From: a virus
IMG/VR virus record: IMGVR_UViG_3300045988_101135
Location: 66,762-130,761 of that record
Direction: 5' to 3' (one strand)
DNA: 64,000 nt
Shown: one piece after another, positions 1-21,115 of the stretch
Position numbering within the stretch: the first letter of the stretch is position 1
How the letters are laid out: each line of letters starts with the position of its first letter
Program-made: the position numbers and the translations under genes
Notes under the pieces: generated by a model
Database searches by the model: none
Told to the model about the DNA's origin: nothing
The model's input: the letters and a program-made list of their open reading frames with translations, nothing else

Positions 1-8
1 CTAATGCT

Positions 9-3000
9 GTGTTTAAGGGGTTGGATGCAGAGGATATAGCAATGCAAGCATCAAATGATATTGCTGATTATGTAAATGACAATAATTTGTTTGATGATAT
101 AAATACGTTTTATTCATTATCAAGTCAAGCTTTTGATACAGCTAATCAGTTAAGGGAATTGCGTAATGAGATTAATGATCTGAATGCTGAAATAGAGAGG
201 TTGGCTACAACTCCGAGAAGAGTAGAGGATGGCAATGATACCGAAGCAGAGGCTATAAAACAAAAAACTATTAAATACGATAATCTTAATAAGGAATATA
301 GAAGGTTGTCAGAAGATCTTCTTAGTAGTTATAAAGAAGTATTTTATTCTTTTGATCCTGGAGTATTAGCTCTTGAGTTGTTTAAATCCGAAACAATAAC
401 TGCTGAAGATATATTGAAGGCTTATGACTCTGTAGCTTCTTTAAGTACTTATATTGAGAATAATAAAGGAAAGAAAGAAGCAGAGGATTTAAGAAATATG
501 GTGGTGAAATACCAGCAAGCCATTACCCAATATAAGGTTTTACGGTCATTTATGAACTCCATACAGGATAAGAAATTCATGAGACATGATTTTTCTTTAT
601 TTTCTAAGTTCTTAAATGATATGGTATCTTCTAATACTAAATCTATAGAAAGTGATCGTTTTTACCAGACAGAGGATAATAATATCAGTTTGGATGAAAA
701 AATAGATGAGCTTCTGAATAATGGAGAAATAAATTCAGATGAAGCATTTACCATGAAAGTATTTGGTCATCTAAACGATGGTATAACTCAGAAGCCGAAA
801 GAAGATATATTGTCTGATTTTGATTATGAGTCGGCAATGGAAGATCTTTTGTCTGCACCTATAGAGGTTAAAGAACGTATCGTAGATAAGATATATACAG
901 GTAATCAAGATCTTTTATCTCCAAGGGAGAAGGAGATATATGAAAAGTATAAACAGGATATTGATGATTATATATCAAATCTTGGTGATAGTCCGGCTAA
1001 GATGATAAAAGATTTATCAGATAAAGTTAGGAGACTTACTGAACCTCGATCTGTGTATGAGGATAATAAAGCTATTATTGATATGGCTAAATCCAATTTA
1101 GAACCAGATCAAAGGAAGGAACTTGATGATGCTATTTCTTCGTATGTTGATATAATGAACAGACGGGATAAAGGGGAGAAGGTTGACGAAGATAAGCTTG
1201 CTGATTCGGTATTTACCATAGAAGATCTTGGTCAGGTTGGAAACATCACAGATCTCCTTCCTTATATTGAACAAAACAGGATTATTGACAAAGGTCGTAT
1301 TTCCGAATCTACGTTAAGTAATTTTGGGGAGGATGATGCTAATATAGATTCTCTTGTAAATGAATTAGACGAATCTGATAATACACCTGGAGCTAACATA
1401 GATAGTGCCCAGAATCCAGAGACGTTGATGGTAAGAAGAATCTCCAATGATGGCAACGAAAGGTATGAAATTGCGGGTCTTAGAGCTGATAAATTTATAT
1501 CTTCTATAAAATCATTGGTTCCTATTCAAATAAGCTCTGAAACGAACGCTAATGGTACTAAAAGGTATTCTCTTAACATAGGTGGAGAAACGGCTACTAT
1601 AATTGAACTGCCTTATCATGCGAGATGGTCTATAGACAAAGAATCGGCTCGTGTTCTTAACCGTTACACAGACGTGTCTATTCAGGACGTGGGTAATTCC
1701 TATTCTTTGGTTTATAAGCGTCTTGATTCAGATGAGTTGGTTCCGTACAGAACGGGTGTTGGATTCGGAGAGAATGAGGTAGATAAAATAGATCAGGAAG
1801 CATTATCTTCTTTGAAAAAAGGAGATAAGGTTAATCTCGAAATAGATGTAAATGATACTTATAATCAGTCTCTTTTTACCGAATACAATGACGCTGTTCA
1901 GTCCGGCGATAAAAAAAGAATAGAATCTGCTGAGAATAAACTGGTGTCCAATATGGTTATCAAGGTCATGAGTGGGAACAGATTCGTTTCTGTTGTAAAA
2001 GCTGATACAGGAGGCATAGATGGTATAAGTAAAATAAGAAGAACGGCTTTTAACAAGTGGAAGAAGGACGCCGGCCGGTCGGCTACCATCGGCGTCGGCA
2101 CGCATGTTGTTGCCCAGACCCTTCCTGGAAGACCGGTGTTTAACATGAGAGTAAACGGTCAAGGATATGGTCAGGTAGAAAATCTCCCTATTACCGAAAA
2201 AGGTGCTGAAAAAGTATCTGATGTTGGATATGTATTAAATGGCAAAGTCGTGCTTAAGAACGGATCTAAATACACAGGCTTCCCATTTGCTTATTCTATA
2301 TTAAATGACAAGGGGAATAATTACAAAAATGTAAGAGTTCCGGTAGTCGTCATCAAAGGTAAAAACGGTCTTAATTATCTTTTCCCAGTTAGCCTACGTT
2401 CTGTAGAATCAGAGGAAGGGCAGAAATGGATGTCTTTTATAGATACGCTGCTTGAATCTGGTGATTCTGAATTGCTACAGATGGGTCAAGATGACATACA
2501 AGATCTTAATGCGTATCTAACCAAGTTAGGTCTTGATCCGGCTTCGTATCAAGTATCGTATTTGAATCCTATTTCAGGGCTTAGAAAAGCTCGTGAGGCT
2601 ATAGAAAAATTATCTACGGTTCCTGATGTTGTTAAGTGGGTAGAAGATGGAAGTAGGAGCGTGAAAGACATTGTGACGTCTGAAGTAGAATCTGGAATAG
2701 ATTTCGAAGGTGAGATGTTTGTCGCTCCTAAGATCAGGATTCAGTTTGGCAAATCATCTTCCAGGCCTAAATCGCTTATAGAGGATGATCTTCCTTTCTC
2801 TGATGAGGGTAAGACCGTTACTTCTAAGGTAGAAGATGTGGAAGTTTATGAAGAGGAAATGCCAGAGGAAGGGGCTGCCCGGGAGACTCAGCCGGCGCCA
2901 TTAGCTCAGCCGGCTCCTGCGGCACAAGCTACGCAGTCTTTACCTGGCAAGAAGCGTACCTCCAGGAAAAACTTCTCTCTTATGTTAAACGAAATAGAAT

Positions 3001-4580
3001 CTCATATAGAAAAAGAAGGATTGCCGTCTTATGCTAATATTTTTGATTTTATAGCAAGGAAGATTGTAGGAGGTGATTTGAGGTTTCTTCGTGAGAGAGG
3101 TAATCCTAAAAGCCTTAAGGAAGAAATGGGATTAGAACCTAAAGGAACAGTAGGTGATAAAATATCCACTCCTTCCAGTAAAGGTGGTAAGACCTTAGAA
3201 GAATACGTTTCTTGGCTTCGTTCTCAAACAGATCAGGTGGTGGTTGATTATGTTGGGCCAAGATCTGACGAACAAATTATATCAGAGTTGAAAAACTTTT
3301 TGAAATATATTAATTTTGTTCCAAGCAAGGCTTTGAATTATTCTCTTAGAGTCAATGGCATGGATACCCTAAAAGAATATGGCACAAAAGAGGAAGTAGA
3401 AAAAATGGAATCTGATATCAATAGTTTGGTTTCTAAAGTTTTGCCTACGGTGGACAACCAAACTATAGAAGATGTTTCTACTGCAATAAAATCAAACAAC
3501 TTGCCTGCCATATGGGAGCCCGTGGAAAGCCTTGATATGACAAACGAGGAAAAAATAGAGTTTTTGAATAACGTAGCAGATTTCCTTAGCGGCATACCAG
3601 AGTATGATGCTGTCGTGGAGTCTATAGAGTCAGAATCAGATAATATTTTAAATGATGGAAAAGAAGGAAGTGCAGAAGGCGGTGCAGTACGCACTGAGGA
3701 AGATGGCGATAAAAAGGGAGATGGAGAAGGCAAAGGACAATCCAGAACAAATGTCGAAGTTAAAGGAAATATCGAATTACCTGGATATGAAGAAGGAAGA
3801 GTAGATAACTATAGGAAGAACGGAGATAAGTTCTCTGACATTGCTGAAGTCACTTTATGGCTACTTAGAAGGGCTGCCGGCATAACCTCTATCCCGGAAG
3901 GAGAAGAGGTTTATGTAGAGGGAGATGAGGTTAATAGTATTATGACCGATATGGAATCAAGGTATGGTATAGACACCATCAATCACTCGCATACGACTAA
4001 GGTTATAAGGGATCTTAACGGCGTATCAGGTTATAAAGTAGAATACGGCTTAACCTTTTTGACATACGATCCTTTTATTAGGATATCCAATCCAAGGGAA
4101 GAATATAAGGCTGCGAAAGACGAGCCTCGTATATCCGAAGAACCTCTTACTCACATATCAAGGGTGACAACCCCTTATTTCCTGTACGGCGGTGATGAAG
4201 CATATACATCTGTTCCGGCTAAGGTAGAACCTATACCGGAGAAGATAATGGGTCGTAATGGCATTAAATTTGGTATGAGTGTAGTCGAGTTAACCAAATT
4301 AGGGTACAAAAAAGCTGGTGGAAACTGGATATATAAATTCTATATGAACTCAGGTGTGTATGATTTGTATAATATCAGTACCGGTGAAGCGTTTAGGGCA
4401 AAACCGGATCTTGGAGTTAAGATAAGTTCCAGTGCATTCATCCGCTCTTTATCTCAATCTGGTAGAAAAATACAAAATATGATGAGTAATATGAGCCAGG
4501 AAGAGATAGATAGGAATAAGAATCTCGTAGAAGGTTCTGATAATTCGGATTCGATAAATGAGTTAAATAAGGAGTGTTGA
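9..4580 (+). CDS. giant hypothetical protein, N-terminally truncated by window edge (>=1523 aa)
   Basis: Uninterrupted ORF; frame is open upstream to position 3 so the true start lies outside the window. Pro/Ala-rich linker (PAPLAQPAPAAQ). No catalytic motif recognised. Confidence 0.7.
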   Translation: MFKGLDAEDIAMQASNDIADYVNDNNLFDDINTFYSLSSQAFDTANQLRELRNEINDLNAEIERLATTPRRVEDGNDTEAEAIKQKTIKYDNLNKEYRRLSEDLLSSYKEVFYSFDPGVLALELFKSETITAEDILKAYDSVASLSTYIENNKGKKEAEDLRNMVVKYQQAITQYKVLRSFMNSIQDKKFMRHDFSLFSKFLNDMVSSNTKSIESDRFYQTEDNNISLDEKIDELLNNGEINSDEAFTMKVFGHLNDGITQKPKEDILSDFDYESAMEDLLSAPIEVKERIVDKIYTGNQDLLSPREKEIYEKYKQDIDDYISNLGDSPAKMIKDLSDKVRRLTEPRSVYEDNKAIIDMAKSNLEPDQRKELDDAISSYVDIMNRRDKGEKVDEDKLADSVFTIEDLGQVGNITDLLPYIEQNRIIDKGRISESTLSNFGEDDANIDSLVNELDESDNTPGANIDSAQNPETLMVRRISNDGNERYEIAGLRADKFISSIKSLVPIQISSETNANGTKRYSLNIGGETATIIELPYHARWSIDKESARVLNRYTDVSIQDVGNSYSLVYKRLDSDELVPYRTGVGFGENEVDKIDQEALSSLKKGDKVNLEIDVNDTYNQSLFTEYNDAVQSGDKKRIESAENKLVSNMVIKVMSGNRFVSVVKADTGGIDGISKIRRTAFNKWKKDAGRSATIGVGTHVVAQTLPGRPVFNMRVNGQGYGQVENLPITEKGAEKVSDVGYVLNGKVVLKNGSKYTGFPFAYSILNDKGNNYKNVRVPVVVIKGKNGLNYLFPVSLRSVESEEGQKWMSFIDTLLESGDSELLQMGQDDIQDLNAYLTKLGLDPASYQVSYLNPISGLRKAREAIEKLSTVPDVVKWVEDGSRSVKDIVTSEVESGIDFEGEMFVAPKIRIQFGKSSSRPKSLIEDDLPFSDEGKTVTSKVEDVEVYEEEMPEEGAARETQPAPLAQPAPAAQATQSLPGKKRTSRKNFSLMLNEIESHIEKEGLPSYANIFDFIARKIVGGDLRFLRERGNPKSLKEEMGLEPKGTVGDKISTPSSKGGKTLEEYVSWLRSQTDQVVVDYVGPRSDEQIISELKNFLKYINFVPSKALNYSLRVNGMDTLKEYGTKEEVEKMESDINSLVSKVLPTVDNQTIEDVSTAIKSNNLPAIWEPVESLDMTNEEKIEFLNNVADFLSGIPEYDAVVESIESESDNILNDGKEGSAEGGAVRTEEDGDKKGDGEGKGQSRTNVEVKGNIELPGYEEGRVDNYRKNGDKFSDIAEVTLWLLRRAAGITSIPEGEEVYVEGDEVNSIMTDMESRYGIDTINHSHTTKVIRDLNGVSGYKVEYGLTFLTYDPFIRISNPREEYKAAKDEPRISEEPLTHISRVTTPYFLYGGDEAYTSVPAKVEPIPEKIMGRNGIKFGMSVVELTKLGYKKAGGNWIYKFYMNSGVYDLYNISTGEAFRAKPDLGVKISSSAFIRSLSQSGRKIQNMMSNMSQEEIDRNKNLVEGSDNSDSINELNKEC

Positions 4581-4582
4581 GT

Positions 4583-5113
4583 ATGAGAAGGAGATTTTTT
4601 AATGCTGCGGATAATTTCGTGGGAGGATGTTATAATAAGTTATCCAATGAAGATATAAAAAGGCTTGGAGGAAAAAGACCTTATGTATGTCAGTTTAATA
4701 AAATTCATATACATATAGGACCTGTATTAAAAGATCATGATTCTGATGTTAGTTACATAATGTTTAATAGTAATTGGAATTATGGTGGTTATGAATCTAT
4801 GGTTTATAATCATAGCAATAATGGTATTTTTATATTAGGTGAAAACAAAATTGGTAACATAGAAGATCATATACAAGATCTAACATATTGGTACGAATAT
4901 GATCCAAGCATTAATGAAAATTATTGTTATTTTTATTATGAGGCTAATAACAGCGGAAATGCTATCAAGTTGAATGGTGAGTTTGGTGATACCAGTACTG
5001 TTTTCAACATTCCCAGCTTGGAAGTCACCACTCTTCGTGATGGCAGTTTGAGTTTTCCGGAGATTTATATAGAAGGAATTTGGGATCCGTCATTGTATAA
5101 GTCGGTTTTATAA
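4583..5113 (+). CDS. MRRRF-family small protein A (176 aa)
   Basis: ATG at 4583 preceded by aaggag; the track ORF starts at GTG 4574. N-terminus is MRRRFF. A C-terminal block EYDPSINENY...NG..G is shared with the ORF at 21329. Confidence 0.6.
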   Translation: MRRRFFNAADNFVGGCYNKLSNEDIKRLGGKRPYVCQFNKIHIHIGPVLKDHDSDVSYIMFNSNWNYGGYESMVYNHSNNGIFILGENKIGNIEDHIQDLTYWYEYDPSINENYCYFYYEANNSGNAIKLNGEFGDTSTVFNIPSLEVTTLRDGSLSFPEIYIEGIWDPSLYKSVL

Positions 5114-5139: not shown

Positions 5140-7398
5140 ATGGGTGTCAAATGTCAGATAGAAAAAAAGGAAAATGAAATAAAACGGGTTAAGGCTCCTA
5201 ACGGGGAGCCTTCCGTTCTTTACGAAAGTGCTTTAAAAGTATTAGGAAACAGCGAGCGGGCCCTTCAGGTATGGGCTAAGGCTTACACTCCTGGTTTTTT
5301 GTCGTATTACGGTCATTGGAACAACCCGGCTCCAGGGGAGATGTTTAACACCGATCCCAATGGCGAACCTCTTTTAGAAGACGTGCTGTCGTATATGAAG
5401 CGTCAGACTTATTTTGCTGATCCTTTAACGGCTCAGGATGTTAAGGATGTAAGGGATTTCCTTTTGTCTACTCATTATTTTTTCAATGCGTCTTCATTGT
5501 CTAATGCTATTCTCTTCGATTTTTATGTAGATGGCAGTTTGATACTGAATGAGCAGAAATTAAGGAGATCCGGTTTGTATGATGAAACAGAAATAAGTCG
5601 TATTTTATCCGATCCTTCTGTTTTAAACGAGGTTTCGACTTCCATGAGAAAGTTAATAGATTCTTCTATTAACGAACATGATAGGGAAAAAGATAATTAT
5701 TTTATGTCTATTGACTATCAGTATGGTCCTATTGTTTACAAGGAGGGAGTGTTTAACCAATTTGGTAAAAAAGTACCATATAATCCTTCTGAGCTTTATT
5801 ATGCTATGCGTAAAACAGTAGCCGGCATAAAAAACTTTTCTGAATTTTCATCTGCTTTTGAATCGTTGAGAAATTCATATCCTGAACTGGTTGAGAAATT
5901 CGTTTCTGATAAAGAATTTGCCGAATCTATGTTTGATGAGTTCTCATCTACGAATAAGATTCCGGTAATAAACATAGAAGGGGATGATGTGGTGGAAGGC
6001 AAGAGAAGATCTTTGTCTAAGCTACAAGATCTTTCTTATTACAATTCCGGCAAAATAGAGTTCCTAAGAGCTCGTATATCAGCTTATTTACATAGGGCTA
6101 ATGCCGACACCGAATCCGATTTAAGAAGCATGATATGGGATATAGAAGAGGCTTGTACGTGGTTTGGCATAGATATAATAGGGACATCGGAAACTTATGA
6201 TGGCACAGAAGAATCTTTGAATAAGATAGATAATTTGATGCTGGATCTTGATATTTATGTGGCCAGGCATAATGATGTAAATTATGCTCCAGCGCTGGCA
6301 TCTTCTATAGATGATGTTCTTGGTGATAGTACAGACTATTATTTTGGATTATTGCCGGAGTATATGGATAATTTGAATATCGTTTATTCTGAATCCGATA
6401 TAGACCCAGTAGAGGCATTTGAGAAACATTCATTGCTCAAGGTAGGAGATAATCTATATCAAAGGATCAGCAAAGATGATCTTAACGAGATGTATCAAAT
6501 ATCAACAGTATTAGCCAAGCACAACCTAACTCATTTTTCTACTAAAATATATCCTGAATCTTGTTTTAAGAACGGCGTTTTGGATAAAGAGAAAGTACGG
6601 AACGTAGATAATAATACGCTCATGGCTTCCATTAAAAAATACGTCAGATCGTTCATGGATTCTCAGAACACAGAGGACATGATAATGACCAGGATGGCGT
6701 TTGGGCACCCTGCGGTACTTGACGTTCCTTACGTGGATGTGGATCGGGAGTATAGTCGATACATGAACAAAAAACAAGATAGCGAAAACCCATTATCCTT
6801 ATTCGATTTATACCAATCTTACCTTGACAACAAACTCCATAAAACAAAATTATATGATAATGCCTATAAGTATCTTGACTTCAAACCTGGTCCATCTTTG
6901 GGTCTTATTTCTGATGATCCTGATATTTTGAAATCAATAGAATTATCTTTATCTGGAAAAGACAGGTTGATGTTGTTTGATTATAGCATGACCAGTACCG
7001 ACCCTTCTTTATCAGAATTGTTTTATTTGGAGAGGTATGACCCTTCGTATGCTGGGAATGATTTTGAACACTATTTTTACACCAGGCACCCGTATTTGTT
7101 AAAAGAAAAATCGGGTTCTAATATCGTAGAGCAAGATGGTGTTATAACAGCAGAAGGTATTTATGATAATTTTATAAGAGTAGGTAATAAGATATGGTCT
7201 AAAGTAAGCGAGAGTAGTTCCGGCTCTATCTACCAAAATCTAACAGGAACCGAATCGGAGGTGAAATACGATTCTACTCAGAAGGCTAAGACGGTAGAAA
7301 CCGATTACGCTCCATACCAAAACAGATCTGGCTTGACGCAAGATATGACCGTAAGCAAGTCTGAATTGGATGATCTTAATAAATTGGAATGCAAATAA
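5140..7398 (+). CDS. hypothetical protein (752 aa)
   Basis: Long ORF co-oriented with the giant ORFs; no recognisable domain. Confidence 0.65.
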   Translation: MGVKCQIEKKENEIKRVKAPNGEPSVLYESALKVLGNSERALQVWAKAYTPGFLSYYGHWNNPAPGEMFNTDPNGEPLLEDVLSYMKRQTYFADPLTAQDVKDVRDFLLSTHYFFNASSLSNAILFDFYVDGSLILNEQKLRRSGLYDETEISRILSDPSVLNEVSTSMRKLIDSSINEHDREKDNYFMSIDYQYGPIVYKEGVFNQFGKKVPYNPSELYYAMRKTVAGIKNFSEFSSAFESLRNSYPELVEKFVSDKEFAESMFDEFSSTNKIPVINIEGDDVVEGKRRSLSKLQDLSYYNSGKIEFLRARISAYLHRANADTESDLRSMIWDIEEACTWFGIDIIGTSETYDGTEESLNKIDNLMLDLDIYVARHNDVNYAPALASSIDDVLGDSTDYYFGLLPEYMDNLNIVYSESDIDPVEAFEKHSLLKVGDNLYQRISKDDLNEMYQISTVLAKHNLTHFSTKIYPESCFKNGVLDKEKVRNVDNNTLMASIKKYVRSFMDSQNTEDMIMTRMAFGHPAVLDVPYVDVDREYSRYMNKKQDSENPLSLFDLYQSYLDNKLHKTKLYDNAYKYLDFKPGPSLGLISDDPDILKSIELSLSGKDRLMLFDYSMTSTDPSLSELFYLERYDPSYAGNDFEHYFYTRHPYLLKEKSGSNIVEQDGVITAEGIYDNFIRVGNKIWSKVSESSSGSIYQNLTGTESEVKYDSTQKAKTVETDYAPYQNRSGLTQDMTVSKSELDDLNKLECK

Positions 7399-7442
7399 TT
7401 TTTGTATATATATAATATATTTTTTCATAATTACGATTTGGG

Positions 7443-13021: not shown

Positions 13022-13024
13022 ATT

Positions 13025-13330: not shown

Positions 13331-13347
13331 CTAAAAAACAAAACAAC

Positions 13348-14015: not shown

Positions 14016-14180
14016 AAAAGTTGATATTCGTTTAGGCAGAGGTCTGGCGAATCAGATTAAGATAAACAAAACCATTCCAGTGTCTCATAAACCAAAAGAA
14101 GAACGTCGAATGATGTTTATTTGTGGTGATGATATTGCTTCTCTTATAAAGCGGTTTGAAAACGAATCAAAGTAATATAA

Positions 14181-14212
14181 AGTCGGACATGTGTCTTGTC
14201 CGACTTTTTTTT
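14181..14212 (+). terminator. rho-independent terminator agtcggaca-tgtgtct-tgtccgact + T8
   Basis: Perfect 9-bp stem, 7-nt loop, followed by tttttttt. Confidence 0.7.
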
Positions 14213-14225
14213 ATATATTTGTGGC

Positions 14226-14549
14226 ATGGCAAGAGGTTATTATTGGATACCACAAACAGATGAAACGTTAAATGGCAGAAGCTATTACGTGGCTAAGATA
14301 GTAGGAGATATCACGTTTGATACTAAACGAAAAAGAATCGTATTTCAAGCTGATAGGTATTTCCCTGTAGGATCTGTTTTCCATTTTACGCACAATTGCT
14401 TCAATTATATCATAACTTGCCGACTTCGTAAGCCGGGGCTTTGGTTTGAAGCCAGGAGAGAGGATTCGGGCCCTATTTGCCCTGAAGATATTGAGCGCTT
14501 TGAATCGGGAAGGTTTATACACCGAGATGGGTACATGCATTACATATAA
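14226..14549 (+). CDS. hypothetical protein (107 aa; start moved to the second Met)
   Basis: The track ORF starts at 14196 inside the terminator hairpin; ATG at 14226 (MARGYYW) is the more plausible start. Confidence 0.4.
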   Translation: MARGYYWIPQTDETLNGRSYYVAKIVGDITFDTKRKRIVFQADRYFPVGSVFHFTHNCFNYIITCRLRKPGLWFEARREDSGPICPEDIERFESGRFIHRDGYMHYI

Positions 14550-14602
14550 GCTGAACTTGACGATTTTTCGTCAGATTATAATTTTTTTTTCATATTATTT
14601 TT

Positions 14603-14640
14603 AAGCCATCAGACTGAGAAGTTAGGTGGCTTTATTTTTT
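14603..14640 (+). terminator. hairpin aagccatc-14nt-ggtggctt + tatttttt
   Basis: 8-bp stem (one G-U pair) followed by a T tract, 50 nt upstream of the 2140-aa ORF. Confidence 0.55.
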
Positions 14641-14692
14641 ATGATATGCTTTATTTTTAACTACCTTTGTCTCATAACAAAAATGTTTTATC

Positions 14693-17600
14693 ATGGTATC
14701 AACGTGTATTATTAAAAGAGATAATAAAAAGAAAGTTGTTTCTGTCTCTACCAGATCAGGGGACAGGTCTATGTTGTTTGATAAGATAGCATCTATTCCT
14801 CTTATGGAGAACAGGGAACGGGCTACTACTGTTTTTAAAACCGTATTTTCTAATAAGTTCTTAAAGGATTTTGGCGACTGGAGAAAGAGAGTGCCTATCA
14901 ACAAACCGGCTTATAATAAGGTTAAATCCAACATTGATCTTATTCCGGAAGCTTATAGAGAAAGGGTACTGGATAAGGCTTCTAAGATGAGCAACCCTAT
15001 TCTTGTGTCAAAATCAGATGCACCTTATGGAATCCGAGAATCGGGCTTTGGATTCTACAGCCAAGATCTGGGTGATAATATTATGTTGGTGGATGCTATG
15101 GTTCCGTCAAGTATTTCCGTACCGGAAGGACCTGGAATAGACGCCGGGCAGTATTTACAAGATGCTATATCTTCGGACTTCACTCCCGTATCTATGGTAC
15201 AGGATAAGGGTGTTAATTATATGGTTATAAAAGACGGTCTTAAGATATTTAGCCCAGAAGAGTTACCACAGACAGATTCTAATCCTGTGGGTGTAACGTA
15301 TCATACTGGAGAGCCTCGTTTGTTTTTCATGAACGATCGTAGTCAATTATTTGAAGATTACGGAGAAGCTCTTCGCTCTGGAGGGAATGATATTAGAATA
15401 GGATTCTTATCCGGCACCGTTCAAGAATCTGCCGTGGATGGCGTGGCAGACATTACTTACAAGGCTGGAAAGTATGTTCTTAATAATCCCAAGTCTTTTA
15501 TACCGGTCATGACCGCTTCTGCTTCTACTTCTTTATCAACAAAAGGTGGTATAATTAACTACCTTATAAAGAAAGGTCTTTTGTCCGGATCCAAGATATT
15601 CGATCCGGAAACAAGAAGCTATTATATTACAGGAGAAGGACATACAGGACAAATTAGACTTTTCAATTCAGCCTTATCCTACACTGAGCTCCGTAATCAT
15701 TTTGGTTCCGATGTTTCCATGAACGACCAGGGTATGATAACCATAAATTCATTGGATAATAGTAAGGTAACTATGAGACTCGCCACCGGAGGAACAGAAA
15801 GAGTTAGCAAGGAGCAGATAAAGAGCGATCTTAAGTCTGGAAGATACAATGAATTGGATGCTAAATACGATCACTTTGATGCGCTTGTAGTTTCATTTAT
15901 ATTAGAAGACAATGATCTTTATGCTGATACTAAAGCTAAGATAGTATCGGATTATAGCCAAGAGGAACGTAATCAACGAAATTCTATTGTTGAGATACTG
16001 AAAACGCTGGGCGTTAGTGTCGTTGGCATGACCGATTATATAGAGAAGTACCAAACCAAATACGGGCACGAACCTTCTGCTAAGGCATTGGCGGATATTG
16101 CCAATAACGTAATAGCAGTTGGTGAAGATGCTACTTTATCTGATTTAGTAGAAGAAACAGCCCACTTCCTTGTAGAGGCATACAGAGATCAGAATGCTGT
16201 TGAGGCTGTTCTGCAAGATGTGGAAGGTACGGAAGAGTGGAACCAATATGCAGGTCAGTATTATAATACATACGGTAAAGTATATGAAGGCTCTGAACTT
16301 GATAATGCTGTTAGGAGAGAAATTCTTGGAAAGATCCTCGCCAGGGAGATGCAGACCGGCACAGCACAGGCGCCGGTAGAGCCCACCTCCTTCCTGGGGC
16401 GCGTCCGGCAGCTTTTCTCTGGAATCGTAAGCTGGCTTAAATCAGCTTTATCAACTCAAAGACAAGATTTGAATAACGTTATTAAAAACATTCGTGATCT
16501 TGCCATTACTGACATAGATAAAGGATTTGACACCTCTCTGTTAAAGGATAATGACTTTACATTATACTCCCTTTCTTCTATGAACAAGAACAAGTTTCTT
16601 GAGTCTAAGATCCTGGCATTAAGGAAAACATTAAGAGACTTACGTCAGATAAGCTCTGATAGGGCTGTAACTACGTCTATGACCCTTGCTCAGCTTAAGA
16701 CCATAGAAGATAAGATAAATAAGGTAGAGACCGAAATAGACAAGAATGAGATGGCGGCTGCCATGAACAGCATGATCTCTACAGCCGAAGCTCAGGTCAG
16801 ATACTTAAGCAATGTGGTGAACACCATCCTTCATGGTGATACCAAAGACGGTAAGCTTCACTTCAATACCAATGATCGAAAGAACGTAGATATTATCAAC
16901 AATCAGGTTCTTCCGATCATGAACGATCTTCGAGGATATATCCGTAACAGAAGTACCGAATTTGATGAACGTGAAAAGCAGGATTATACAAATAGGATCA
17001 ATACCGTCATTGCCGACATCAATGGTATTCAGTCTGATATTAAATCAGTACAAGACCTTGATGAAAGTACGTTGCTTGATAAGTTAATGAACGAACTTCA
17101 TGTGCCGGCAGATAAGGTAAAGAGAGTAAAAGAATTTTTCGACAAGGTTCAACACGATGTTTCTTGGATAAGTAGGTGGTTCGGTATATTAGAGCATTCT
17201 TCCAGTCCGTTCAATAACGCTCTTGGAGCTATGATTGCCAAAGACAATTACAATGCGATGGTGAATGCCCAGCCCGCCATATCCGATTTCCTGGCATATG
17301 CGAAAAAGCATGGTTTTAACAAATCTGAATTTGAAAAACTGCTTCAGAAAGTAGACGGCAAAACTTCTAATTACCTTCGTAGTGCTCTTGATATGGCTAA
17401 ATACGATCGTAATAAGAAGCTGGCGCAGATGCGAGCGTTTGCGACTGCCATGAACATAGAGATATCAGAAGAAGAAATTGGTGATGTGGTTGACAATAAC
17501 CGTAATTACGTATTTAAAAGAGAAGTAGTTGACAAGGATGGAAATACGGTTACTGAAAACGCTAAATTCAAACCATCGTCTGATAGGGTTAATACCGATA

Positions 17601-20600
17601 TTTTTACCATCGAGCAGGAAAAGATCTATACAGAGCAGATGGAAAAGTGGGATGCTGAAAATTCGGAACTGGAATTTAGCGAAAGTTATGCCACAAGAAT
17701 GGAATCCATATACAAAAAGGCTGAAGAAGAATTAGGGTATCCGGTTTCTCAAACAACCAAAGAATATCTTAATGCCCTATCCCGGCAAAAACGGATATTG
17801 AGGCAGCCTTTTATTGATAGCGGTGGTAATTTTGATGAGGTTGCCTATTTTAAAAGCAGCAATTACGAAGAAGAAGGACTGCTTCGTAAACAACGTAAGG
17901 AAGCAGCTTCAGAATACATATATGTAGGAACCAGGAGAGTGGAAAAAACCGGCGACCAACTTAAGATGGCCAAAGAAATACAAGCTATAAATGAAGTTTG
18001 GAGAAAGGAATCAAATAATGCCACTAATGCCGTATCAGAATCGTTTTTGCAAAAATTAAGAACGATTCAGAGCGAGTCTGGAGGAGAAGCTGCGCTGAAG
18101 ACACTTATGTTGGGAGGTCACCTGTCATTCAACGATCGGTTTTGGAATGATGTAGAATCAGAACAGTCGGCACGTACCGAATCAAATAACAAGGCTTCGT
18201 ATCTTAAAATGGCGCATGATATCATTAGTTCTACGACAAGTGATAGAGATGCGACTGACGTGGATTCTATTGTGAAAGATATAGAAAAAAATAAGGCTAT
18301 TATCAAGGAAATAATCGGAAACAATCGCGATGTGGCTGATATCGGAGAAATTAACGAAGCGACATTTACCTCATCCGAAAGAGATGCTTTTAGGGCCGCA
18401 TCTGAAGCTATTGAAGCCGATTACGCTATTTTGATAGATTATGCTAAGATGGTGGGTCTTGAAGATATTGATAAGTACCTTACTAAAAGCAGTAAGGCTG
18501 AAAACGAAGTAAATCAGTCTTATTTAAATGCTCTTGCTGACTCCAAGGAAGTGGAATGGAAGTTCGTACAACGTCATACTACGGCGAAGAAAGCAAAAAG
18601 GATTCAGGCTTTAAGGGATAAGCTGTTTAAGGCTGCTGATAACCGATATCTGTTTACCGTATCTGAAACCAACTACCTGTCAGAAAAGCTTGGTATAAGC
18701 AAAGAATTAGACGGTAGAGATTTCAGGAATGCTGTTAATGCTAAGATGGCCAGCTTATTTTTAAATAATACAAGAGAAGAGGGCGTAGAAGAAGCTAATG
18801 CTATTGTTAATGAATTTGCCAGAAGCCAGGTTTTTTCGTACTATAAACGCATGGCGCCTACCGGATATGCAGCTATGATCGACAAAATCGGTCGAGGTGA
18901 GATAGATGTGGCGCAAATGGTTAAGGACGTACAAAACGGTACATCCACCCAAGATTATGGCATGGACATATCGTACTTGTCTTTCGACCCTGCAAGGGCA
19001 TGGGTGGCTGAATCTGAAGCCGAAAATAGCGGTCGTAATCCTGATTATGTAAAAGATCATGGGTATGGTCATCGAATGCCTAAGAAAAGCCTGTATCGTG
19101 ACGAATCGTATTTCAATGACTTTGGTATCAAGTATGATGCTGACGGTAATGAGGTTGCTACTAAAAACGTAGAGCAGTGGAATATGATTCAAAAACTCAA
19201 GGAAATAAAAAGACAATCCCTTGATCTATACAAAGAGCAGAGCCCGAACCTGTATGCTATTCCACAGATATCCAAACAAGATATAGAACGTGTAGAAGGA
19301 TTGGGTATTAACTTCAAAAATACGGTTCGTAATTTTGTATCAGATCTGTGCCTGGACAGAGTAGACGATTCTCTATATGGTAAGACCAGGCAAGGAGAAG
19401 TGTATGATCCAGAAGACAGGCTTAGGTCTATACCTAAATACTACATATATGAATTGGAGAACCAAGATGATGTATCTCACGATTTTGGCTACTCTTATTC
19501 GATGCTTATGATGCAATCATCGTTATACAACGAAAAGCAGAAGTCTATAGAGCTTGCCCAAGGACTGGAGCAGATGTTACTAAATAAACAATTTGAAGGT
19601 GGTAAAAAGGCTGAAGCAACCCAAGCATATCAGATGTTCAGGGACTTCTTCAACGATCATTATTATGGCATTAGGATGAACACCAAAAAACTTACGGTGA
19701 ACATCGGAGGATATACGGTAGACCTTACAAGAATTATGATGGCTGTTGAAAGATTTATGTCGGTTATGAACTTGGCACTGTCTCCGTTTGTGGCAGCTAC
19801 CGGCGCCCTGACAGGCCATATCAACCTCATCATGGAATCAGCCGTAGGACAGTATATAAGCAAAGATTCCCTTAAATACGCATCGGCTGAGTTTTCCCGT
19901 CTTGCGCCATCTTGTATAGCAGAAACCGGAGACATAGATAGGAAAAGCAAATTATATGTCATAGGTGAGAGAATGGGGATATTCAATATCCGAAATCGTA
20001 TGTATGGTGCCGGATACAATAGAGCGGCCAGGACCTTAATGCGTTCGCCTATGTATGCTTTTATGGAAATCCTGAACTACCCTCTTGATCCGCAGGTTAT
20101 GATTGCTACTATGGACAATGTTCGTTATTACAAAGGCCGGTTCTACACGTTCCAAGATTTCAAGATGGAAAAAGAACGCAATAAAGAACAGAGTACCATA
20201 AAAAGAGAATGGAACGCATTAAAAGATCGTACTTTATGGAGTATGGTAGACGTCGTGGATGGAAAGGTGGTTGTAAAGCCGGGATCGGGTGTTACTGTTG
20301 AGGAAGTTGAAACCCAGATGGCTATAACCAGGAATCAAGTCCGTAGCTTGTCGCAGATATGTAACGGATCTTTGAATGAAGAAAACCGAACTGCCGCATC
20401 GCGCAACTGGATAGCCAGGTTCATGACCGCCCACCGAGGATGGTTGGTGCTGGCGGCTCAACGTCTGTGGAAAAGACGTGGCTTCAATTTCCAGACAATG
20501 CAAGAAGAGGAAGGGTTGTCAATTACGTTAAAGAATATGATAGCCAAAACATTTAGCTTAGCTTCCGAGTCTGGTATGAAAAACATCATAGATGCCTGGA

Positions 20601-21115
20601 ACGAAAATAAAGACAATATGAATGAGGTAGAGAAAACCAATATAAAACGTCTCAGTGTCTATGCCGGCACGTTCCTTATCATGCAAGCCGTATCCATGCT
20701 TCTTGCCGGATGGCGTGATGATGATGAAAACGAAGAAAGTTGGCTTACTCAATTTGGATCCTATGTCGGATTCAGAACCATAAACGAAATAGCTTCACAG
20801 ATGCCGTTTATTATGGAGCTTAACGTGGTAGATATCATTAACGATCCGTTTGTTATGGGGCGAAAACTGAAGGATCTTACCGATCTTAGGAATTATTCAC
20901 TTGATAAAGTAACATCCGGTACATACAAGGGAGAGTCTAAGTTATTTAGGCAACTCGCCAAACAGACGTTTATCAAACAATGGTATAATATCAAGACGCC
21001 GGAAGACGTAGCGCGTGCCTATAACTGGTGGCAGCAGACGAACAACAAGTCAATGATGTTTTTCATCGGTGCCACTCCTGATTCAGAAGGAGACGATGAT
21101 GTGAGCTACAAGTAG
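14693..21115 (+). CDS. giant hypothetical protein (2140 aa)
   Basis: 6.4-kb uninterrupted ORF bracketed by terminators. No DxDGD, Walker or other catalytic motif recognised by eye. An alternative start at 14771 (MLFDK) is possible. Confidence 0.8.
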   Translation: MVSTCIIKRDNKKKVVSVSTRSGDRSMLFDKIASIPLMENRERATTVFKTVFSNKFLKDFGDWRKRVPINKPAYNKVKSNIDLIPEAYRERVLDKASKMSNPILVSKSDAPYGIRESGFGFYSQDLGDNIMLVDAMVPSSISVPEGPGIDAGQYLQDAISSDFTPVSMVQDKGVNYMVIKDGLKIFSPEELPQTDSNPVGVTYHTGEPRLFFMNDRSQLFEDYGEALRSGGNDIRIGFLSGTVQESAVDGVADITYKAGKYVLNNPKSFIPVMTASASTSLSTKGGIINYLIKKGLLSGSKIFDPETRSYYITGEGHTGQIRLFNSALSYTELRNHFGSDVSMNDQGMITINSLDNSKVTMRLATGGTERVSKEQIKSDLKSGRYNELDAKYDHFDALVVSFILEDNDLYADTKAKIVSDYSQEERNQRNSIVEILKTLGVSVVGMTDYIEKYQTKYGHEPSAKALADIANNVIAVGEDATLSDLVEETAHFLVEAYRDQNAVEAVLQDVEGTEEWNQYAGQYYNTYGKVYEGSELDNAVRREILGKILAREMQTGTAQAPVEPTSFLGRVRQLFSGIVSWLKSALSTQRQDLNNVIKNIRDLAITDIDKGFDTSLLKDNDFTLYSLSSMNKNKFLESKILALRKTLRDLRQISSDRAVTTSMTLAQLKTIEDKINKVETEIDKNEMAAAMNSMISTAEAQVRYLSNVVNTILHGDTKDGKLHFNTNDRKNVDIINNQVLPIMNDLRGYIRNRSTEFDEREKQDYTNRINTVIADINGIQSDIKSVQDLDESTLLDKLMNELHVPADKVKRVKEFFDKVQHDVSWISRWFGILEHSSSPFNNALGAMIAKDNYNAMVNAQPAISDFLAYAKKHGFNKSEFEKLLQKVDGKTSNYLRSALDMAKYDRNKKLAQMRAFATAMNIEISEEEIGDVVDNNRNYVFKREVVDKDGNTVTENAKFKPSSDRVNTDIFTIEQEKIYTEQMEKWDAENSELEFSESYATRMESIYKKAEEELGYPVSQTTKEYLNALSRQKRILRQPFIDSGGNFDEVAYFKSSNYEEEGLLRKQRKEAASEYIYVGTRRVEKTGDQLKMAKEIQAINEVWRKESNNATNAVSESFLQKLRTIQSESGGEAALKTLMLGGHLSFNDRFWNDVESEQSARTESNNKASYLKMAHDIISSTTSDRDATDVDSIVKDIEKNKAIIKEIIGNNRDVADIGEINEATFTSSERDAFRAASEAIEADYAILIDYAKMVGLEDIDKYLTKSSKAENEVNQSYLNALADSKEVEWKFVQRHTTAKKAKRIQALRDKLFKAADNRYLFTVSETNYLSEKLGISKELDGRDFRNAVNAKMASLFLNNTREEGVEEANAIVNEFARSQVFSYYKRMAPTGYAAMIDKIGRGEIDVAQMVKDVQNGTSTQDYGMDISYLSFDPARAWVAESEAENSGRNPDYVKDHGYGHRMPKKSLYRDESYFNDFGIKYDADGNEVATKNVEQWNMIQKLKEIKRQSLDLYKEQSPNLYAIPQISKQDIERVEGLGINFKNTVRNFVSDLCLDRVDDSLYGKTRQGEVYDPEDRLRSIPKYYIYELENQDDVSHDFGYSYSMLMMQSSLYNEKQKSIELAQGLEQMLLNKQFEGGKKAEATQAYQMFRDFFNDHYYGIRMNTKKLTVNIGGYTVDLTRIMMAVERFMSVMNLALSPFVAATGALTGHINLIMESAVGQYISKDSLKYASAEFSRLAPSCIAETGDIDRKSKLYVIGERMGIFNIRNRMYGAGYNRAARTLMRSPMYAFMEILNYPLDPQVMIATMDNVRYYKGRFYTFQDFKMEKERNKEQSTIKREWNALKDRTLWSMVDVVDGKVVVKPGSGVTVEEVETQMAITRNQVRSLSQICNGSLNEENRTAASRNWIARFMTAHRGWLVLAAQRLWKRRGFNFQTMQEEEGLSITLKNMIAKTFSLASESGMKNIIDAWNENKDNMNEVEKTNIKRLSVYAGTFLIMQAVSMLLAGWRDDDENEESWLTQFGSYVGFRTINEIASQMPFIMELNVVDIINDPFVMGRKLKDLTDLRNYSLDKVTSGTYKGESKLFRQLAKQTFIKQWYNIKTPEDVARAYNWWQQTNNKSMMFFIGATPDSEGDDDVSYK

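What the first reader, a model, noticed from the sequence alone, without database searches (positions are those of the whole stretch)
9..21115. Two giant ORFs (>=1523 aa and 2140 aa) plus a 752-aa ORF with no recognisable domains
Together they take up more than 13 kb of the plus-strand block. Each is bracketed by hairpin terminators: 14181 and 14603 lie upstream of the 2140-aa gene, and 21252 lies after it. Proteins of this size in phages are typically tape-measure proteins, ejected cargo, virion-packaged multisubunit-like RNA polymerases, or large tail/receptor proteins. I looked for DxDGD-type double-psi beta-barrel catalytic motifs and for Walker motifs, and saw none.
Basis: partly seen in the sequence, partly recalled or inferred. 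Interest (0 to 1): 0.55.

Follow-up and report, generated by a model that had tools for sequence, protein, structure and literature searches.

The report
Crass-like phage cargo proteins without polymerase
The three big genes are the virion-packaged "cargo" proteins of an epsilon-group crAss-like gut phage, relatives of the partners of the crAss virion RNA polymerase, but the polymerase's catalytic core is missing; each protein also carries an unusual cysteine at its very end, which suggests they are linked into a chain.

Summary
The ORFs are real. The window is about 95% identical to the published epsilon crAss-like phage crAssE-Sib. ORF1 (9..4580) is cut by the window edge and is the last 1523 aa of a ~2230-aa orthologue of crAss001 gp47 / phi14:2 gp67 / phi4:1 gp38. 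The 2140-aa ORF is the orthologue of crAss001 gp49 / phi14:2 gp65 / phi4:1 gp35.

The 752-aa ORF, published as "DNA-dependent RNA polymerase", sits where the catalytic virion RNAP sits in other crassviruses and shares its N-terminal domain and C-terminal "ECK" tail. It has no DFDxD motif, and no double-psi barrel fold was detected. It is a stand-alone copy of a ~700-aa module found in more than 800 protein clusters. About 40% of the top 146 listed clusters carry inserted or appended peptidase, ADP-ribosyltransferase or LPD23 domains.

All three phi4:1 orthologues are annotated as virion proteins from MS/MS. The most likely role is packaged, ejected cargo.

New here: extreme-terminal cysteines follow the order gp47-like (C-terminus), middle protein (both ends), gp49-like (N-terminus) in four crass groups. 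I read this as a possible disulfide-linked ejection chain; it is untested. This is a known kind in an RNAP-less variant, and the biochemical function remains unknown.

The parts
1..4580 (+). 3' 4.57 kb of the gp47-like giant cargo gene (last 1523 of ~2230 aa). It ends '...INELNKEC', with Cys as the final residue (codon 4575-4577).
   Evidence: ORF. Aligns to residues 717-2233 of P0111. Orthologous to phi17:2 gp39, phi14:2 gp67 and IAS gp58. Full-length form matches phrog_32390 at 4e-69. C-terminal Cys.
3807..4115 (+). Insertion of about 100 aa (fragment aa 1267-1369) relative to the common 2135-aa variants of the same protein.
   Evidence: BLASTP HSP breaks against P0112, P0122 and P0222.
4574..5113 (+). 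Small 179-aa ORF between ORF1 and the 752-aa gene. Function unknown. No significant BLASTP match (E<=1e-3) to the 192-aa protein at the same place in crAssE-Sib.
   Evidence: No family hit.
5140..7398 (+). 752-aa stand-alone 'chassis' module, the orthologue of phi4:1 gp37 / phi17:2 gp38. Published as 'DNA-dependent RNA polymerase' (crAssE-Sib ORF98).
5140..5379 (+). N-terminal domain of about 80 aa (MGVKC...YGHW...NTDPNGEPLLEDV). Shared with the 2140-aa protein, cr52_1 gp35 and the phi14:2 vRNAP gp66.
   Evidence: A1 profile hits win_752 at 4e-10. A2b profile hits gp66 residues 15-69 at 2e-5. Visible in the sequences. Both models show the same beta-hairpin plus three helices.
7384..7395 (+). 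C-terminal tail 'LECK' with a conserved penultimate Cys. Compare gp66 '...KQECK'.
   Evidence: 175 of 180 module proteins have Cys in the last 3 residues. Tails listed.
7399..14692 (+). Variable cassette of about 7.3 kb of small genes between the 752-aa and 2140-aa genes. In phi17:2 and phi4:1 only one small gene (gp37 / gp36, 119 aa) separates the two orthologues. Context only, not part of the cargo set.
14179..14207 (.). Strong bidirectional terminator-like hairpin: 11-bp stem, T-run on the + strand.
14603..14640 (+). Terminator-like hairpin (8 bp including one G-U, 14-nt loop) plus T-run, 53 nt upstream of the 2140-aa start codon.
   Evidence: Read from the sequence. Not called by the scan.
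14693..21115 (+). 2140-aa gp49/gp65-like giant cargo gene. It is followed by two small + strand ORFs (21242..21742, 21950..22687) before the switch to the minus-strand replication genes.
   Evidence: phrog_37651 at 1e-76. phi17:2 gp36 at 5e-86, cr52_1 gp35 at 8e-31, IAS gp57 at 4e-15. Profile against phi14:2 gp65 at 8e-26.
14693..14902 (+). N-terminal shared domain of the 2140-aa protein (MVSTC...), with Cys5.
   Evidence: C5 is invariant in A1. All 97 members aligned at that column have Cys; three of the 18 gapped sequences, inspected by eye, also start MxxC.
16151..16177 (+). Family-wide motif E487-E-T-A-H491-F-L-V-E495. It lies in the N-terminal third, as the zincin HEIMH of phi14:2 gp65 does, and may be a degenerate metallopeptidase helix.
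   Evidence: motif in nearly all aligned members. Aligned to IAS gp57 'EEFSHLIVG'. gp65 HEIMH at residue 245 with a weak SprT-like hit. The fold was not confirmed.
19754..19810 (+). Hydrophobic segment, aa 1688-1706.
   Evidence: Kyte-Doolittle scan.
20651..20707 (+). Hydrophobic, transmembrane-like helix (aa 1987-2005) followed by an acidic DDDENEE patch. A similar helix lies 110-150 aa from the C-terminus in all five gp49/gp65-like proteins examined.
   Evidence: Sequences.
21252..21293 (+). Hairpin (8-bp perfect stem, 18-nt loop) with a T-rich tail, downstream of the 2140-aa gene.
   Evidence: Read from the sequence.

Best explanation
Window 1-21115 carries the internal-virion 'cargo' gene block of an epsilon-group crAss-like phage.

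- ORF1 is the C-terminal two-thirds of the gp47/gp67-type giant protein.
- The 2140-aa ORF is the gp49/gp65-type giant protein.
- The 752-aa ORF is a bare copy of a ~700-aa carrier module. It occupies the slot that the two-barrel virion RNA polymerase (phi14:2 gp66 / crAss001 gp50) fills in other crassviruses. It shares that enzyme's N-terminal domain and C-terminal Cys tail, but not its catalytic core.

Shown: the orthology, the synteny, the missing catalytic motif, the modular architecture of relatives, and the terminal cysteines.

Inferred from what is published for crAss001, phi14:2 and phi4:1: the proteins are packed inside the capsid late in infection and expelled through the tail into the host ahead of, or along with, the DNA.

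Inferred from sequence features: the hydrophobic helices (N-terminal part of the gp47-like protein, C-terminal part of the gp49-like protein) engage the host envelope. The shared ~70-80-aa N-terminal domain and the terminal cysteines serve packaging or ordered ejection, possibly by linking the three proteins head to tail.

Because this lineage keeps both giants yet has no detectable catalytic RNAP, their core job is probably ejection or host take-over rather than transcription. Early genes would then be read by the host polymerase.
For: Identity of the phage: 95% nucleotide identity over 88% of window 1-25000 to crAssE-Sib. That phage is published as an epsilon crAss-like phage (PMC11054128).

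Orthology of ORF1:
- Full-length P0111 residues 181-319 hit the 'RNA-polymerase subunit' of IAS virus, cr85_1, cr128_1 and PhiCrAssBcn phages, at E 7e-9 to 1e-5.
- crAssE-Sib 2208-aa protein against phi17:2 gp39: 7e-44. phi14:2 gp67 against the Sib protein: 1e-5, and against gp39: 5e-11.

Orthology of the 2140-aa protein:
- phi17:2 gp36 at 5e-86, cr52_1 gp35 at 8e-31, IAS gp57 at 4e-15.
- Family profile against phi14:2 gp65 at 8e-26.

The 752-aa protein:
- phi17:2 gp38 matches the family profile at 2.5e-66, and the gp39 C-terminus carries module positions 90-172.
- The profile finds 805 clusters. Of the 146 top clusters beyond the family's own close relatives, 62 are longer than 1000 aa, with inserted or appended regions that carry 1-4 HExxH motifs, LPD23 and ART-PolyVal domains. 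None of these has a DFDxD motif.

Synteny: the order gp47-like, middle protein, gp49-like matches phi14:2 gp67-gp66-gp65 and phi17:2 gp39-gp38-(gp37)-gp36.

Virion location: phi4:1 gp35, gp37, gp38 and gp39 are annotated 'experimental MS/MS proteomics'. crAss001 gp47, gp49 and gp50 were detected in virions and modelled as ejected cargo (PMC10172136). gp66 is reported as translocated with the DNA (preprint 10.1101/2020.03.07.982082).

No catalytic RNAP:
- No D-x-D-x-D motif in the three large proteins or in crAssE-Sib's 2208-aa copy. IAS gp56, cr52_1 gp34 and gp66 all have G[ST]DFDIDK.
- No other RNAP appears in the crAssE-Sib annotation.
- Yutin 2021 reports the transcription block, with its DxDxD protein, in all crAss-like groups except Epsilon (PMC7886860).

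Terminal cysteines.
Against: No experiment exists for any epsilon gut phage. Packaging and ejection are extrapolated from Cellulophaga phages and crAss001.

My own profile-profile alignments were not significant beyond the first ~80 residues.

The hydrophobic helices come from a simple hydropathy scan. The zincin-remnant reading of EETAHFLVE has no fold support.

The window portion of ORF1 was not modelled, and its fold is unknown.
Confidence: 0.8

Rival explanations
1. The 752-aa protein is a functional, miniaturised virion DNA-dependent RNA polymerase, as annotated for crAssE-Sib ORF98, and the two giants are its accessory subunits.
For: - Same genomic slot as gp66/gp50.
- N-terminal domain and 'ECK' tail shared with gp66.
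- HHpred 95% probability, 46% coverage, E 3e-3, reported in PMC11054128.
- A 'LDLDIY' stretch (aa 369-374) faintly recalls DFDID.
Against: - There is no DxDxD motif. In 'LDLDIY' the third Asp is Tyr/Phe, and the first Asp is lost in distant members.
- The protein is one third the length of gp66, whose barrels, connector, bridge helix and trigger loop span roughly residues 800-1640.
- The model's predicted secondary structure is mostly helical, with no pair of six-stranded barrels evident.
- Relatives are fused to peptidases, ART and LPD23 domains, never to a DFDxD core.
- Profile-profile alignment is significant only for the first ~80 aa.
- Yutin 2021 lists Epsilon as lacking the transcription block.
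Confidence: 0.08
2. The giants are polyvalent anti-defence or host-takeover effectors whose main role is enzymatic (peptidase, methyltransferase, ART), not ejection.
For: Homologues of the 2140-aa protein carry LPD23, DUF6782/SprT-like metallopeptidase, Methyltransf_23 or NAS-type methyltransferase inserts. Homologues of the 752-aa module carry multiple HExxH motifs, LPD23 and ART-PolyVal. The genes lie among late virion genes, as described for phage polyvalent proteins (PMC5512222).
Against: The window's own copies have none of these domains. The one candidate site has Phe where a zincin needs the catalytic Glu. What is conserved across all members is the carrier part, not any enzyme. This reading overlaps with the best explanation rather than excluding it.
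Confidence: 0.1
3. They are ordinary tape-measure or tail-fibre/receptor-binding proteins.
For: Size only. The N-terminal 1100 aa of the 2140-aa protein is rich in long helices.
Against: - No tape-measure, fibre or receptor-binding family hit in Pfam, PHROGs or NCBIfam.
- The orthologues in crAss001 are internal cargo, not tail parts, in the virion atlas.
- crAssE-Sib has a separate muzzle protein, a receptor-binding protein and carbohydrate-binding proteins upstream.
- The helices form spectrin/GAT-like bundles rather than one continuous coiled coil.
Confidence: 0.02

Closest known systems
crAss001 gp47 / phi14:2 gp67 / IAS gp58 ('putative RNA-polymerase subunit', 1800-2340 aa virion cargo)
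   Same: - Conserved N-terminal region including a hydrophobic stretch.
- Giant size.
- Position after the tail and muzzle genes.
- Cys at or next to the C-terminal end. It is the only Cys in crAss001 gp47 and in the cr85_1 homologue.
   Different: Only about 5% of the protein is recognisably similar to Steigviridae members, and that part lies outside the window. The window portion (aa 717-2233) matches only phi17:2/phi4:1 gp39/gp38 (9e-12). In this lineage there is no catalytic polymerase for it to be a 'subunit' of.
phi14:2 gp65 'RNA polymerase associated protein' / crAss001 gp49 / cr52_1 gp35
   Same: - Homologous C-terminal ~650 aa.
- Conserved hydrophobic helix 110-150 aa from the C-terminus.
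- N-terminal MxxC.
- End of the cargo block, next to the strand switch.
   Different: It is 500-800 aa longer, with a beta-rich region (aa ~100-370) and spectrin-like bundles not aligned to gp65. gp65 has a zincin HEIMH, whereas this family has HFxxE/D. Some relatives carry inserted methyltransferase or metallopeptidase domains.
phi14:2 gp66 / crAss001 gp50 two-barrel virion RNA polymerase (PDB 6VR4)
   Same: Relative to the 752-aa protein:
- the same slot between the two giants;
- a shared N-terminal domain (FGDW...DGEPLL..DV);
- a shared C-terminal '...ECK' tail with Cys at both ends;
   Different: No DFDxD motif, no detectable double-psi barrels, and 752 aa against 2180-2412 aa.
Polyvalent proteins of phages and conjugative elements (Iyer et al. 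2017, PMC5512222)
   Same: Encoded among late virion genes. Relatives combine zincin peptidases, ART-PolyVal, LPD23 and methyltransferases in one chain.
   Different: The window's proteins are the bare carriers, without any recognisable effector domain. The ~700-aa module and the ~70-aa N-terminal domain have no match in the Pfam copy searched.
Podovirus ejection proteins (T7 gp14/15/16, P22 gp7/16/20, N4 gp51/52 plus vRNAP)
   Same: The proposed role is the same: packed in the capsid, expelled first, with segments that enter the envelope (as discussed for crAss001 in PMC10172136).
   Different: No sequence or fold similarity was found. The resemblance is functional inference only.

Membership tests
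Crassvirales gp47/gp67-type cargo protein | Sequence homology to the conserved N-terminal region of gp47/gp67/IAS gp58 | tested here: met
   P0111 residues 181-319 hit crAss 'RNAP subunit' genes at 7e-9 to 1e-5. phi14:2 gp67 against the crAssE-Sib 2208-aa protein gives 1e-5. This region lies upstream of the window.
Crassvirales gp47/gp67-type cargo protein | Position downstream of the tail/muzzle genes and upstream of the RNAP slot | tested here: met
   Order in crAssE-Sib, phi17:2, phi14:2, IAS virus and cr85_1.
Crassvirales gp47/gp67-type cargo protein | Presence in purified virions | not testable with these tools
   The orthologue phi4:1 gp38 is annotated from MS/MS. crAss001 gp47 was detected by MS.
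Crassvirales gp49/gp65-type cargo protein | Homology of the C-terminal ~650 aa | tested here: met
   cr52_1 gp35 at 8e-31 and IAS gp57 at 4e-15. Family profile against gp65 at 8e-26.
Crassvirales gp49/gp65-type cargo protein | Zincin-like HExxH metallopeptidase motif (described for gp65) | tested here: not met
Crassvirales gp49/gp65-type cargo protein | End of the cargo block, next to the switch to the replication strand | tested here: met
   In this window two small + strand ORFs (21242..21742, 21950..22687) follow before the switch.
Two-barrel virion RNA polymerase (gp66/gp50, QDE-1-like) | DFDxD metal-binding motif | tested here: not met
   Absent from the 752-aa, 2140-aa, 1523-aa and crAssE-Sib 2208-aa proteins. 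Present in the positive controls gp66, IAS gp56 and cr52_1 gp34.
Two-barrel virion RNA polymerase (gp66/gp50, QDE-1-like) | Two double-psi beta-barrel domains | tested here: inconclusive
Two-barrel virion RNA polymerase (gp66/gp50, QDE-1-like) | N-terminal domain and slot between the gp47-like and gp49-like genes | tested here: met
   Met for the 752-aa protein.
Polyvalent proteins (Iyer 2017) | Two or more disparate effector domains in one polypeptide | tested here: not met
   No effector domain in the window's proteins. Met in relatives P0025, P0030, P0317, P0337 and P0319.
Polyvalent proteins (Iyer 2017) | Encoded next to late virion genes | tested here: met
Tape-measure protein | Tape-measure family match | tested here: not met
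   No tape-measure family hit. The genes sit after muzzle and tail-lysozyme genes in a crass-type genome.

The most novel reading that the evidence does not exclude
The crassvirus cargo proteins may form a defined head-to-tail chain held by terminal disulfides (or a shared metal): gp47-like C-terminal Cys, then a middle protein with Cys at both ends, then gp49-like N-terminal Cys. This would be the non-peptide equivalent of the single polyprotein seen in some crassviruses, and would allow ordered ejection through the tail.

The middle link would be a general carrier: a ~70-aa N-terminal delivery domain, a body, and a Cys tail. Evolution has inserted different payloads into it, namely peptidases, ADP-ribosyltransferases, and, more speculatively, the two-barrel RNA polymerase in most crassviruses. 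Epsilon phages would carry the empty carrier and so have no virion polymerase. The 'RNAP subunits' of crAss phages would then be ejection machinery rather than transcription factors.
Probability: 0.3. Interest if true: 0.75.

Novelty: new variant of a known kind. Interest (0 to 1): 0.5.

Why it matters
Epsilon crAss-like phages make up roughly a seventh of crAss reads in human gut viromes (13-18% per group; PMC7886860). The giant genes take up about 9% of the genome, and their function is unknown.

Three consequences follow.
- The published 'RNA polymerase' label for the 752-aa gene should be treated as unsupported. Early transcription in this lineage probably depends on the host enzyme.
- The two giants called 'RNAP subunits' in crAss001-type phages persist without a detectable polymerase. 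This argues that they work in genome and protein delivery, and it changes which experiments are worth doing on crAss001 gp47 and gp49.
- The terminal-cysteine rule and the insert-tolerant carrier module give a directly testable model of how podovirus-like phages load and eject megadalton protein cargo. They also suggest a natural scaffold for delivering foreign proteins into Bacteroidota.

Tried and rejected
**Searches and models that led nowhere**
- Single-sequence searches against PDB sequences found nothing for any of the three proteins. Profile searches with the 2140-aa family and the gp47-like family gave only coiled-coil noise.
- Pfam, NCBIfam and a relaxed Pfam scan of the EETAHF region gave nothing. 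Only gp65's own HExxH region gave a weak SprT-like hit, E 0.01.
- hhalign of the 752-aa family against gp66-type polymerases gave probability 54% and then 3%. Only the N-terminal ~80 aa were convincing. I therefore do not claim sequence homology to the polymerase body.

**Ideas considered and dropped**
- 'DKDGDID' in crAssE-Sib's upstream 993-aa protein as a hidden RNAP site. I did not pursue it. It lies outside the window, it looks like a Ca-binding loop, and no DxDxD motif was found in the phi17:2 gp40 orthologue.
- 'LDLDIY' in the 752-aa protein as a decayed DFDID. It is not conserved in distant members.
- N-terminal MxxC as a lipoprotein signal. There is no preceding signal peptide.
- A DGR target as the cause of the divergence in ORF1. 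Not tested; the published crAssE-Sib DGR targets a different gene.

**Data not obtained**
- The homologous-protein search for ORF1 returned only near-identical sequences among the 120 listed, so no deep alignment of the window part of ORF1 was possible.
- Accession NC_024711 (used as p-crAssphage, from memory) is not in the phage collection. The cysteine rule was therefore not tested on an Intestiviridae member.

Full report
**1. The observation**

The + strand of window 1-22700 is one co-oriented gene block; GC skew changes sign near 22 kb. It holds ORFs at 9..4580 (1523 aa), 4574..5113 (179 aa), 5140..7398 (752 aa) and 14693..21115 (2140 aa).

ORF1 runs off the window. Residue 1 of the fragment aligns to residue 717 of a 2233-aa homologue, P0111. 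The copy in the nearest published genome is 2208 aa.

The hairpin at 14179-14207 is a strong terminator-like site. The hairpins at 14603 and 21252 can be read in the sequence. Nothing separates ORF1, the 179-aa ORF and the 752-aa ORF.

Pfam and NCBIfam find nothing. DxDxD, DxDGD and Walker A motifs are absent from the three large proteins.

**2. Which phage this is**

Window 885-24935 is 95% identical to phage crAssE-Sib, OR575929 (151 kb, human gut). That genome is described as an epsilon-group crAss-like phage (PMC11054128). Yutin et al. place Cellulophaga phage phi17:2 in the same Epsilon group (PMC7886860).

The proteins are very common in gut metagenomes. One 90%-identity cluster of the 2140-aa protein holds 13,405 member sequences.

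**3. Orthology of the two giants**

The 2140-aa protein:
- matches phrog_37651, 'virion structural protein', at 1e-76;
- matches phi17:2 gp36 / phi4:1 gp35 over 87% of its length at 5e-86;
- has a C-terminal ~650 aa that matches cr52_1 gp35 (8e-31) and IAS virus gp57 (4e-15);
- belongs to a family whose profile matches phi14:2 gp65, the 'RNA polymerase associated protein', at 8e-26. IAS gp57 is the counterpart of crAss001 gp49.

The full-length form of ORF1:
- matches phrog_32390 at 4e-69 and phi17:2 gp39 at 7e-44;
- has residues 181-319 that hit the genes annotated 'RNA-polymerase subunit' in IAS virus, cr85_1, cr128_1 and the PhiCrAssBcn phages. These are the crAss001 gp47 type;
- is linked through phi14:2 gp67, which hits both gp39 and the crAssE-Sib protein.

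Gene order agrees. phi14:2 has gp67-gp66-gp65. phi17:2 has gp39-gp38-gp37-gp36. Here the order is ORF1, 179 aa, 752 aa, a cassette, then 2140 aa.

In phi4:1 the orthologues gp38, gp37 and gp35 all carry the GenBank note 'experimental MS/MS proteomics analysis'. In crAss001, gp47, gp49 and gp50 were detected in virions and assigned to a capsid cargo zone, from which they are proposed to be ejected partly unfolded (PMC10172136).

**4. The 752-aa protein is not a demonstrable polymerase**

Babkin et al. list it as 'DNA-dependent RNA polymerase' (Table S1, ORF98). The basis is an HHpred match to the phi14:2 enzyme with 95% probability, 46% coverage and E 3e-3. It does sit in the gp66 slot.

The catalytic signature is absent. 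That signature is present in my positive controls: gp66 at residue 1361 (GSDFDIDK), IAS gp56 (GTDFDIDK) and cr52_1 gp34 (GSDFDIDK). It is absent from this protein and from all its relatives examined.

A 16-sequence alignment gave a good AlphaFold model: pLDDT 81.6, pTM 0.71. By predicted secondary structure it is mostly helical, with a few small sheets.

My profile comparisons support homology to gp66 only for the N-terminal ~80 residues. That similarity is plain by eye: 'FGDW...NEDGEPLLIQDV' in gp66 against 'YGHW...NTDPNGEPLLEDV' here.

No other polymerase is annotated in crAssE-Sib. [quoted passage not shown]

My reading: the lineage lacks the catalytic enzyme but, contrary to a simple 'block absent' summary, keeps both large partner proteins.

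**5. What the 752-aa protein is instead**

A profile search of 1.84 billion representative proteins found 805 clusters at E<=1e-3, of which 350 at E<=1e-30. Among the 146 top clusters beyond the family's own close relatives:
- 84 are stand-alone proteins of 1000 aa or less, most about 700-780 aa;
- 62 are longer than 1000 aa, up to 3072 aa.

In the long ones the module is either followed by an extension or split open. The first ~65-78 residues (in some, ~176 or ~244) stay at the N-terminus. An insert of 270-1800 aa follows, and then the rest of the module. In the model, residues 61-68 form a low-confidence loop, which fits an insertion point.

The extra regions carry one to four HExxH motifs, LPD23 and ART-PolyVal domains. 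These are the vocabulary of the 'polyvalent proteins' that Iyer et al. proposed are injected with phage or plasmid DNA (PMC5512222).

The 2140-aa family behaves the same way. Some members carry LPD23 plus a SprT-like/DUF6782 metallopeptidase, or a methyltransferase. In three extended members examined (P0025, P0101, P0107) the MxxC N-terminus is retained.

In phi17:2 the module is divided between the end of gp39 (module positions 90-172) and gp38 (positions 199-752). One metagenomic protein, P0373, fuses a gp47-like protein to the module.

The window's 752-aa protein is therefore the bare form of a widespread, insert-tolerant carrier.

**6. A shared N-terminal domain**

The 2140-aa family profile hits the 752-aa protein at 4e-10 over residues 4-178, although only the first ~70 residues match consistently in the reverse search. 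It also hits the N-terminus of cr52_1 gp35.

Both AlphaFold models start with the same beta-hairpin plus three helices. An HMM of this domain found no other ORF in the window, nor in the fetched loci of crAssE-Sib, phi17:2, phi4:1, phi14:2 and IAS virus, apart from these two families and gp66. gp66 was in the training set; the independent A2b profile gave 2e-5.

A domain restricted to packaged proteins of otherwise different make-up is a candidate packaging or ejection signal. This is inference.

**7. Terminal cysteines (new, unexplained)**

These proteins are poor in Cys: 3 in 752 aa, 4 in 2140 aa and 2 in 2233 aa, against 1.6% in other window ORFs. Yet cysteines sit at the extreme ends in a fixed pattern.

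| Protein type | Pattern | Examples |
|---|---|---|
| gp47-like | Cys at or within 4 residues of the C-terminus | window ORF1 ...NKEC; phi17:2 gp39 ...GFMC; phi14:2 gp67 ...NTIC; IAS gp58 ...YLRC; crAss001 gp47 ...ALRCNS; cr85_1 ...AIKCIAF |
| Middle protein | Cys at both ends | 752 aa MGVKC / ...LECK; gp66 MAC / ...QECK; crAss001 gp50 MSKRC / ...KICGANTLYEL; cr126_1 MSKTC / ...NKIC. Exception: IAS gp56 has only the C-terminal Cys (...DDNLC) |
| gp49/gp65-like | Cys at the N-terminus only | MVSTC here; MSC in phi17:2 gp36 and gp65; MAKKC in crAss001 gp49; MARSC in IAS gp57; MAKGIC in cr52_1 gp35 |

In crAss001 gp47 and the cr85_1 gp47-like protein, the terminal Cys is the only Cys in more than 2300 residues. 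In crAss001 gp49, Cys5 is the only Cys in 1349 residues.

Of 180 module proteins, taken from the two homology searches (most of them cluster representatives at <=50% identity), 170 have Cys in the first 7 residues and 175 in the last 3. This includes 61 and 62 of the 62 long forms. Controls are 11% and 6.5% among 46 other window ORFs.

The pattern follows the chain order gp47-like, middle protein, gp49-like. Drobysheva et al. note that in some phages the three are one polyprotein. In cr52_1, gp34 fuses the gp47-like and polymerase parts.

The simplest reading is head-to-tail linkage by disulfides or a shared metal. crAss001 virions do use intermolecular disulfides in the portal vertex and tail. 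I found no mention of this feature in the papers read. It is a hypothesis, and the relatedness of the sequences inflates the raw counts.

**8. Other features of the 2140-aa protein**

- The motif EE[TVA][AS]HF[LI][VI][ED] (aa 487-495) is present in nearly all aligned members and aligns with 'EEFSHLIVG' of IAS gp57.
- gp65 has its zincin HEIMH at residue 245, likewise in the N-terminal third. The motif here may be a dead remnant, with the catalytic Glu replaced by Phe. Neither Pfam nor fold searches support this, so I leave it as a lead.
- A hydrophobic helix 110-150 aa from the C-terminus, followed here and in phi17:2 gp36 and cr52_1 gp35 by an acidic patch, is found in all five gp49/gp65-like proteins examined. 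gp47-like proteins have a hydrophobic stretch in their conserved N-terminal region. These fit envelope insertion during ejection, as proposed for crAss001 gp45, but they rest on a hydropathy scan only.

**9. Mechanism proposed**

The following steps are extrapolated from crAss001, phi14:2 and phi4:1. They are shown there only in part, and nothing is shown for this phage.
1. Late in infection the three proteins are made from the structural-module strand.
2. They are loaded into the capsid cargo zone.
3. On infection they are expelled through the tail, partly unfolded.

The following steps are inferred from sequence.
1. The N-terminal domain and terminal cysteines set loading or ejection order.
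2. Hydrophobic helices contact the membranes.
3. In relatives, inserted enzymes act in the host after delivery.
4. In this phage the carriers are empty and there is no virion polymerase, so host RNAP reads the early genes.

**10. Verdict**

The finding is real. It resolves to a known kind, the crassvirus internal cargo proteins, in a published near-identical genome. So it is not a new system.

The variant is nonetheless informative:
- the polymerase slot holds a bare carrier;
- the published RNAP label is not supported by the defining features;
- the partner giants persist without the enzyme;
- the termini obey a rule that suggests a testable assembly model.

The biochemical function of all three proteins remains unproven.

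Noticed in passing
window 12018..12749 (+): A 243-aa protein with a WDGH domain (PF25311, 4.5e-36) followed by a Tad2-like Thoeris anti-defence domain (PF11195, 5.6e-11). This is a candidate anti-defence gene inside the cassette between the 752-aa and 2140-aa genes.
   Followed up: partly
window 7399..14692; L001 14561-22736; L012 1-10000: The space between the 752-aa and 2140-aa genes is a variable cassette of small genes. The window lacks the ~0.9-kb antirepressor gene that crAssE-Sib has there. A distant relative (L012) has a DNA methylase, a resolvase and a TnpB/IS605 gene at the same place. In phi17:2 and phi4:1 only one small gene separates the flanking orthologues.
   Followed up: partly
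L001 22737-29139 (crAssE-Sib 103085..109487): In the published crAssE-Sib record the 2140-aa gene is split into two overlapping CDS of 846 and 5658 nt. The window and the large metagenomic clusters have one intact ORF, so the split is probably a frameshift or an assembly error in that record.
   Followed up: partly
window 1..884 and 3807..4115: ORF1 is mosaic between strains. The first 884 nt did not match crAssE-Sib by megablast, and the protein is only 78% identical overall to the Sib copy while the neighbouring genes are ~95% identical. The window copy has a ~100-aa insertion relative to the common 2135-aa variants.
   Followed up: partly
L003 7040-14450 (phi17:2 gp39/gp38): In phi17:2 the carrier module is divided. 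Module positions 90-172 lie at the C-terminal end of gp39 and positions 199-752 in gp38, with the two CDS overlapping by 17 nt. This could be a natural split, a programmed frameshift or an annotation artefact.
   Followed up: no
L001 2078-5059 (crAssE-Sib 993-aa structural protein, upstream of the window): Contains 'TIDKDGDIDLKD', which matches both DxDGD and DxDxD patterns. It looks more like a calcium-binding loop than an RNAP site, and no DxDxD motif was found in the phi17:2 gp40 orthologue.
   Followed up: partly
L007 (cr52_1), all cargo genes: Translation with table 11 gives 6-37 in-frame stops per gene in cr52_1 gp31-gp35. This is consistent with the TAG reassignment reported for some delta-group crAss-like phages.
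   Followed up: no
crAss001 L010 (gp47, gp49, gp50); cr85_1 L005; cr126_1 L011; IAS L006: Single-cysteine giants. crAss001 gp47 (2341 aa) and gp49 (1349 aa) each contain exactly one Cys, placed 4 residues from the C-terminus and at position 5 respectively. The cr85_1 orthologues show the same pattern.
   Followed up: yes
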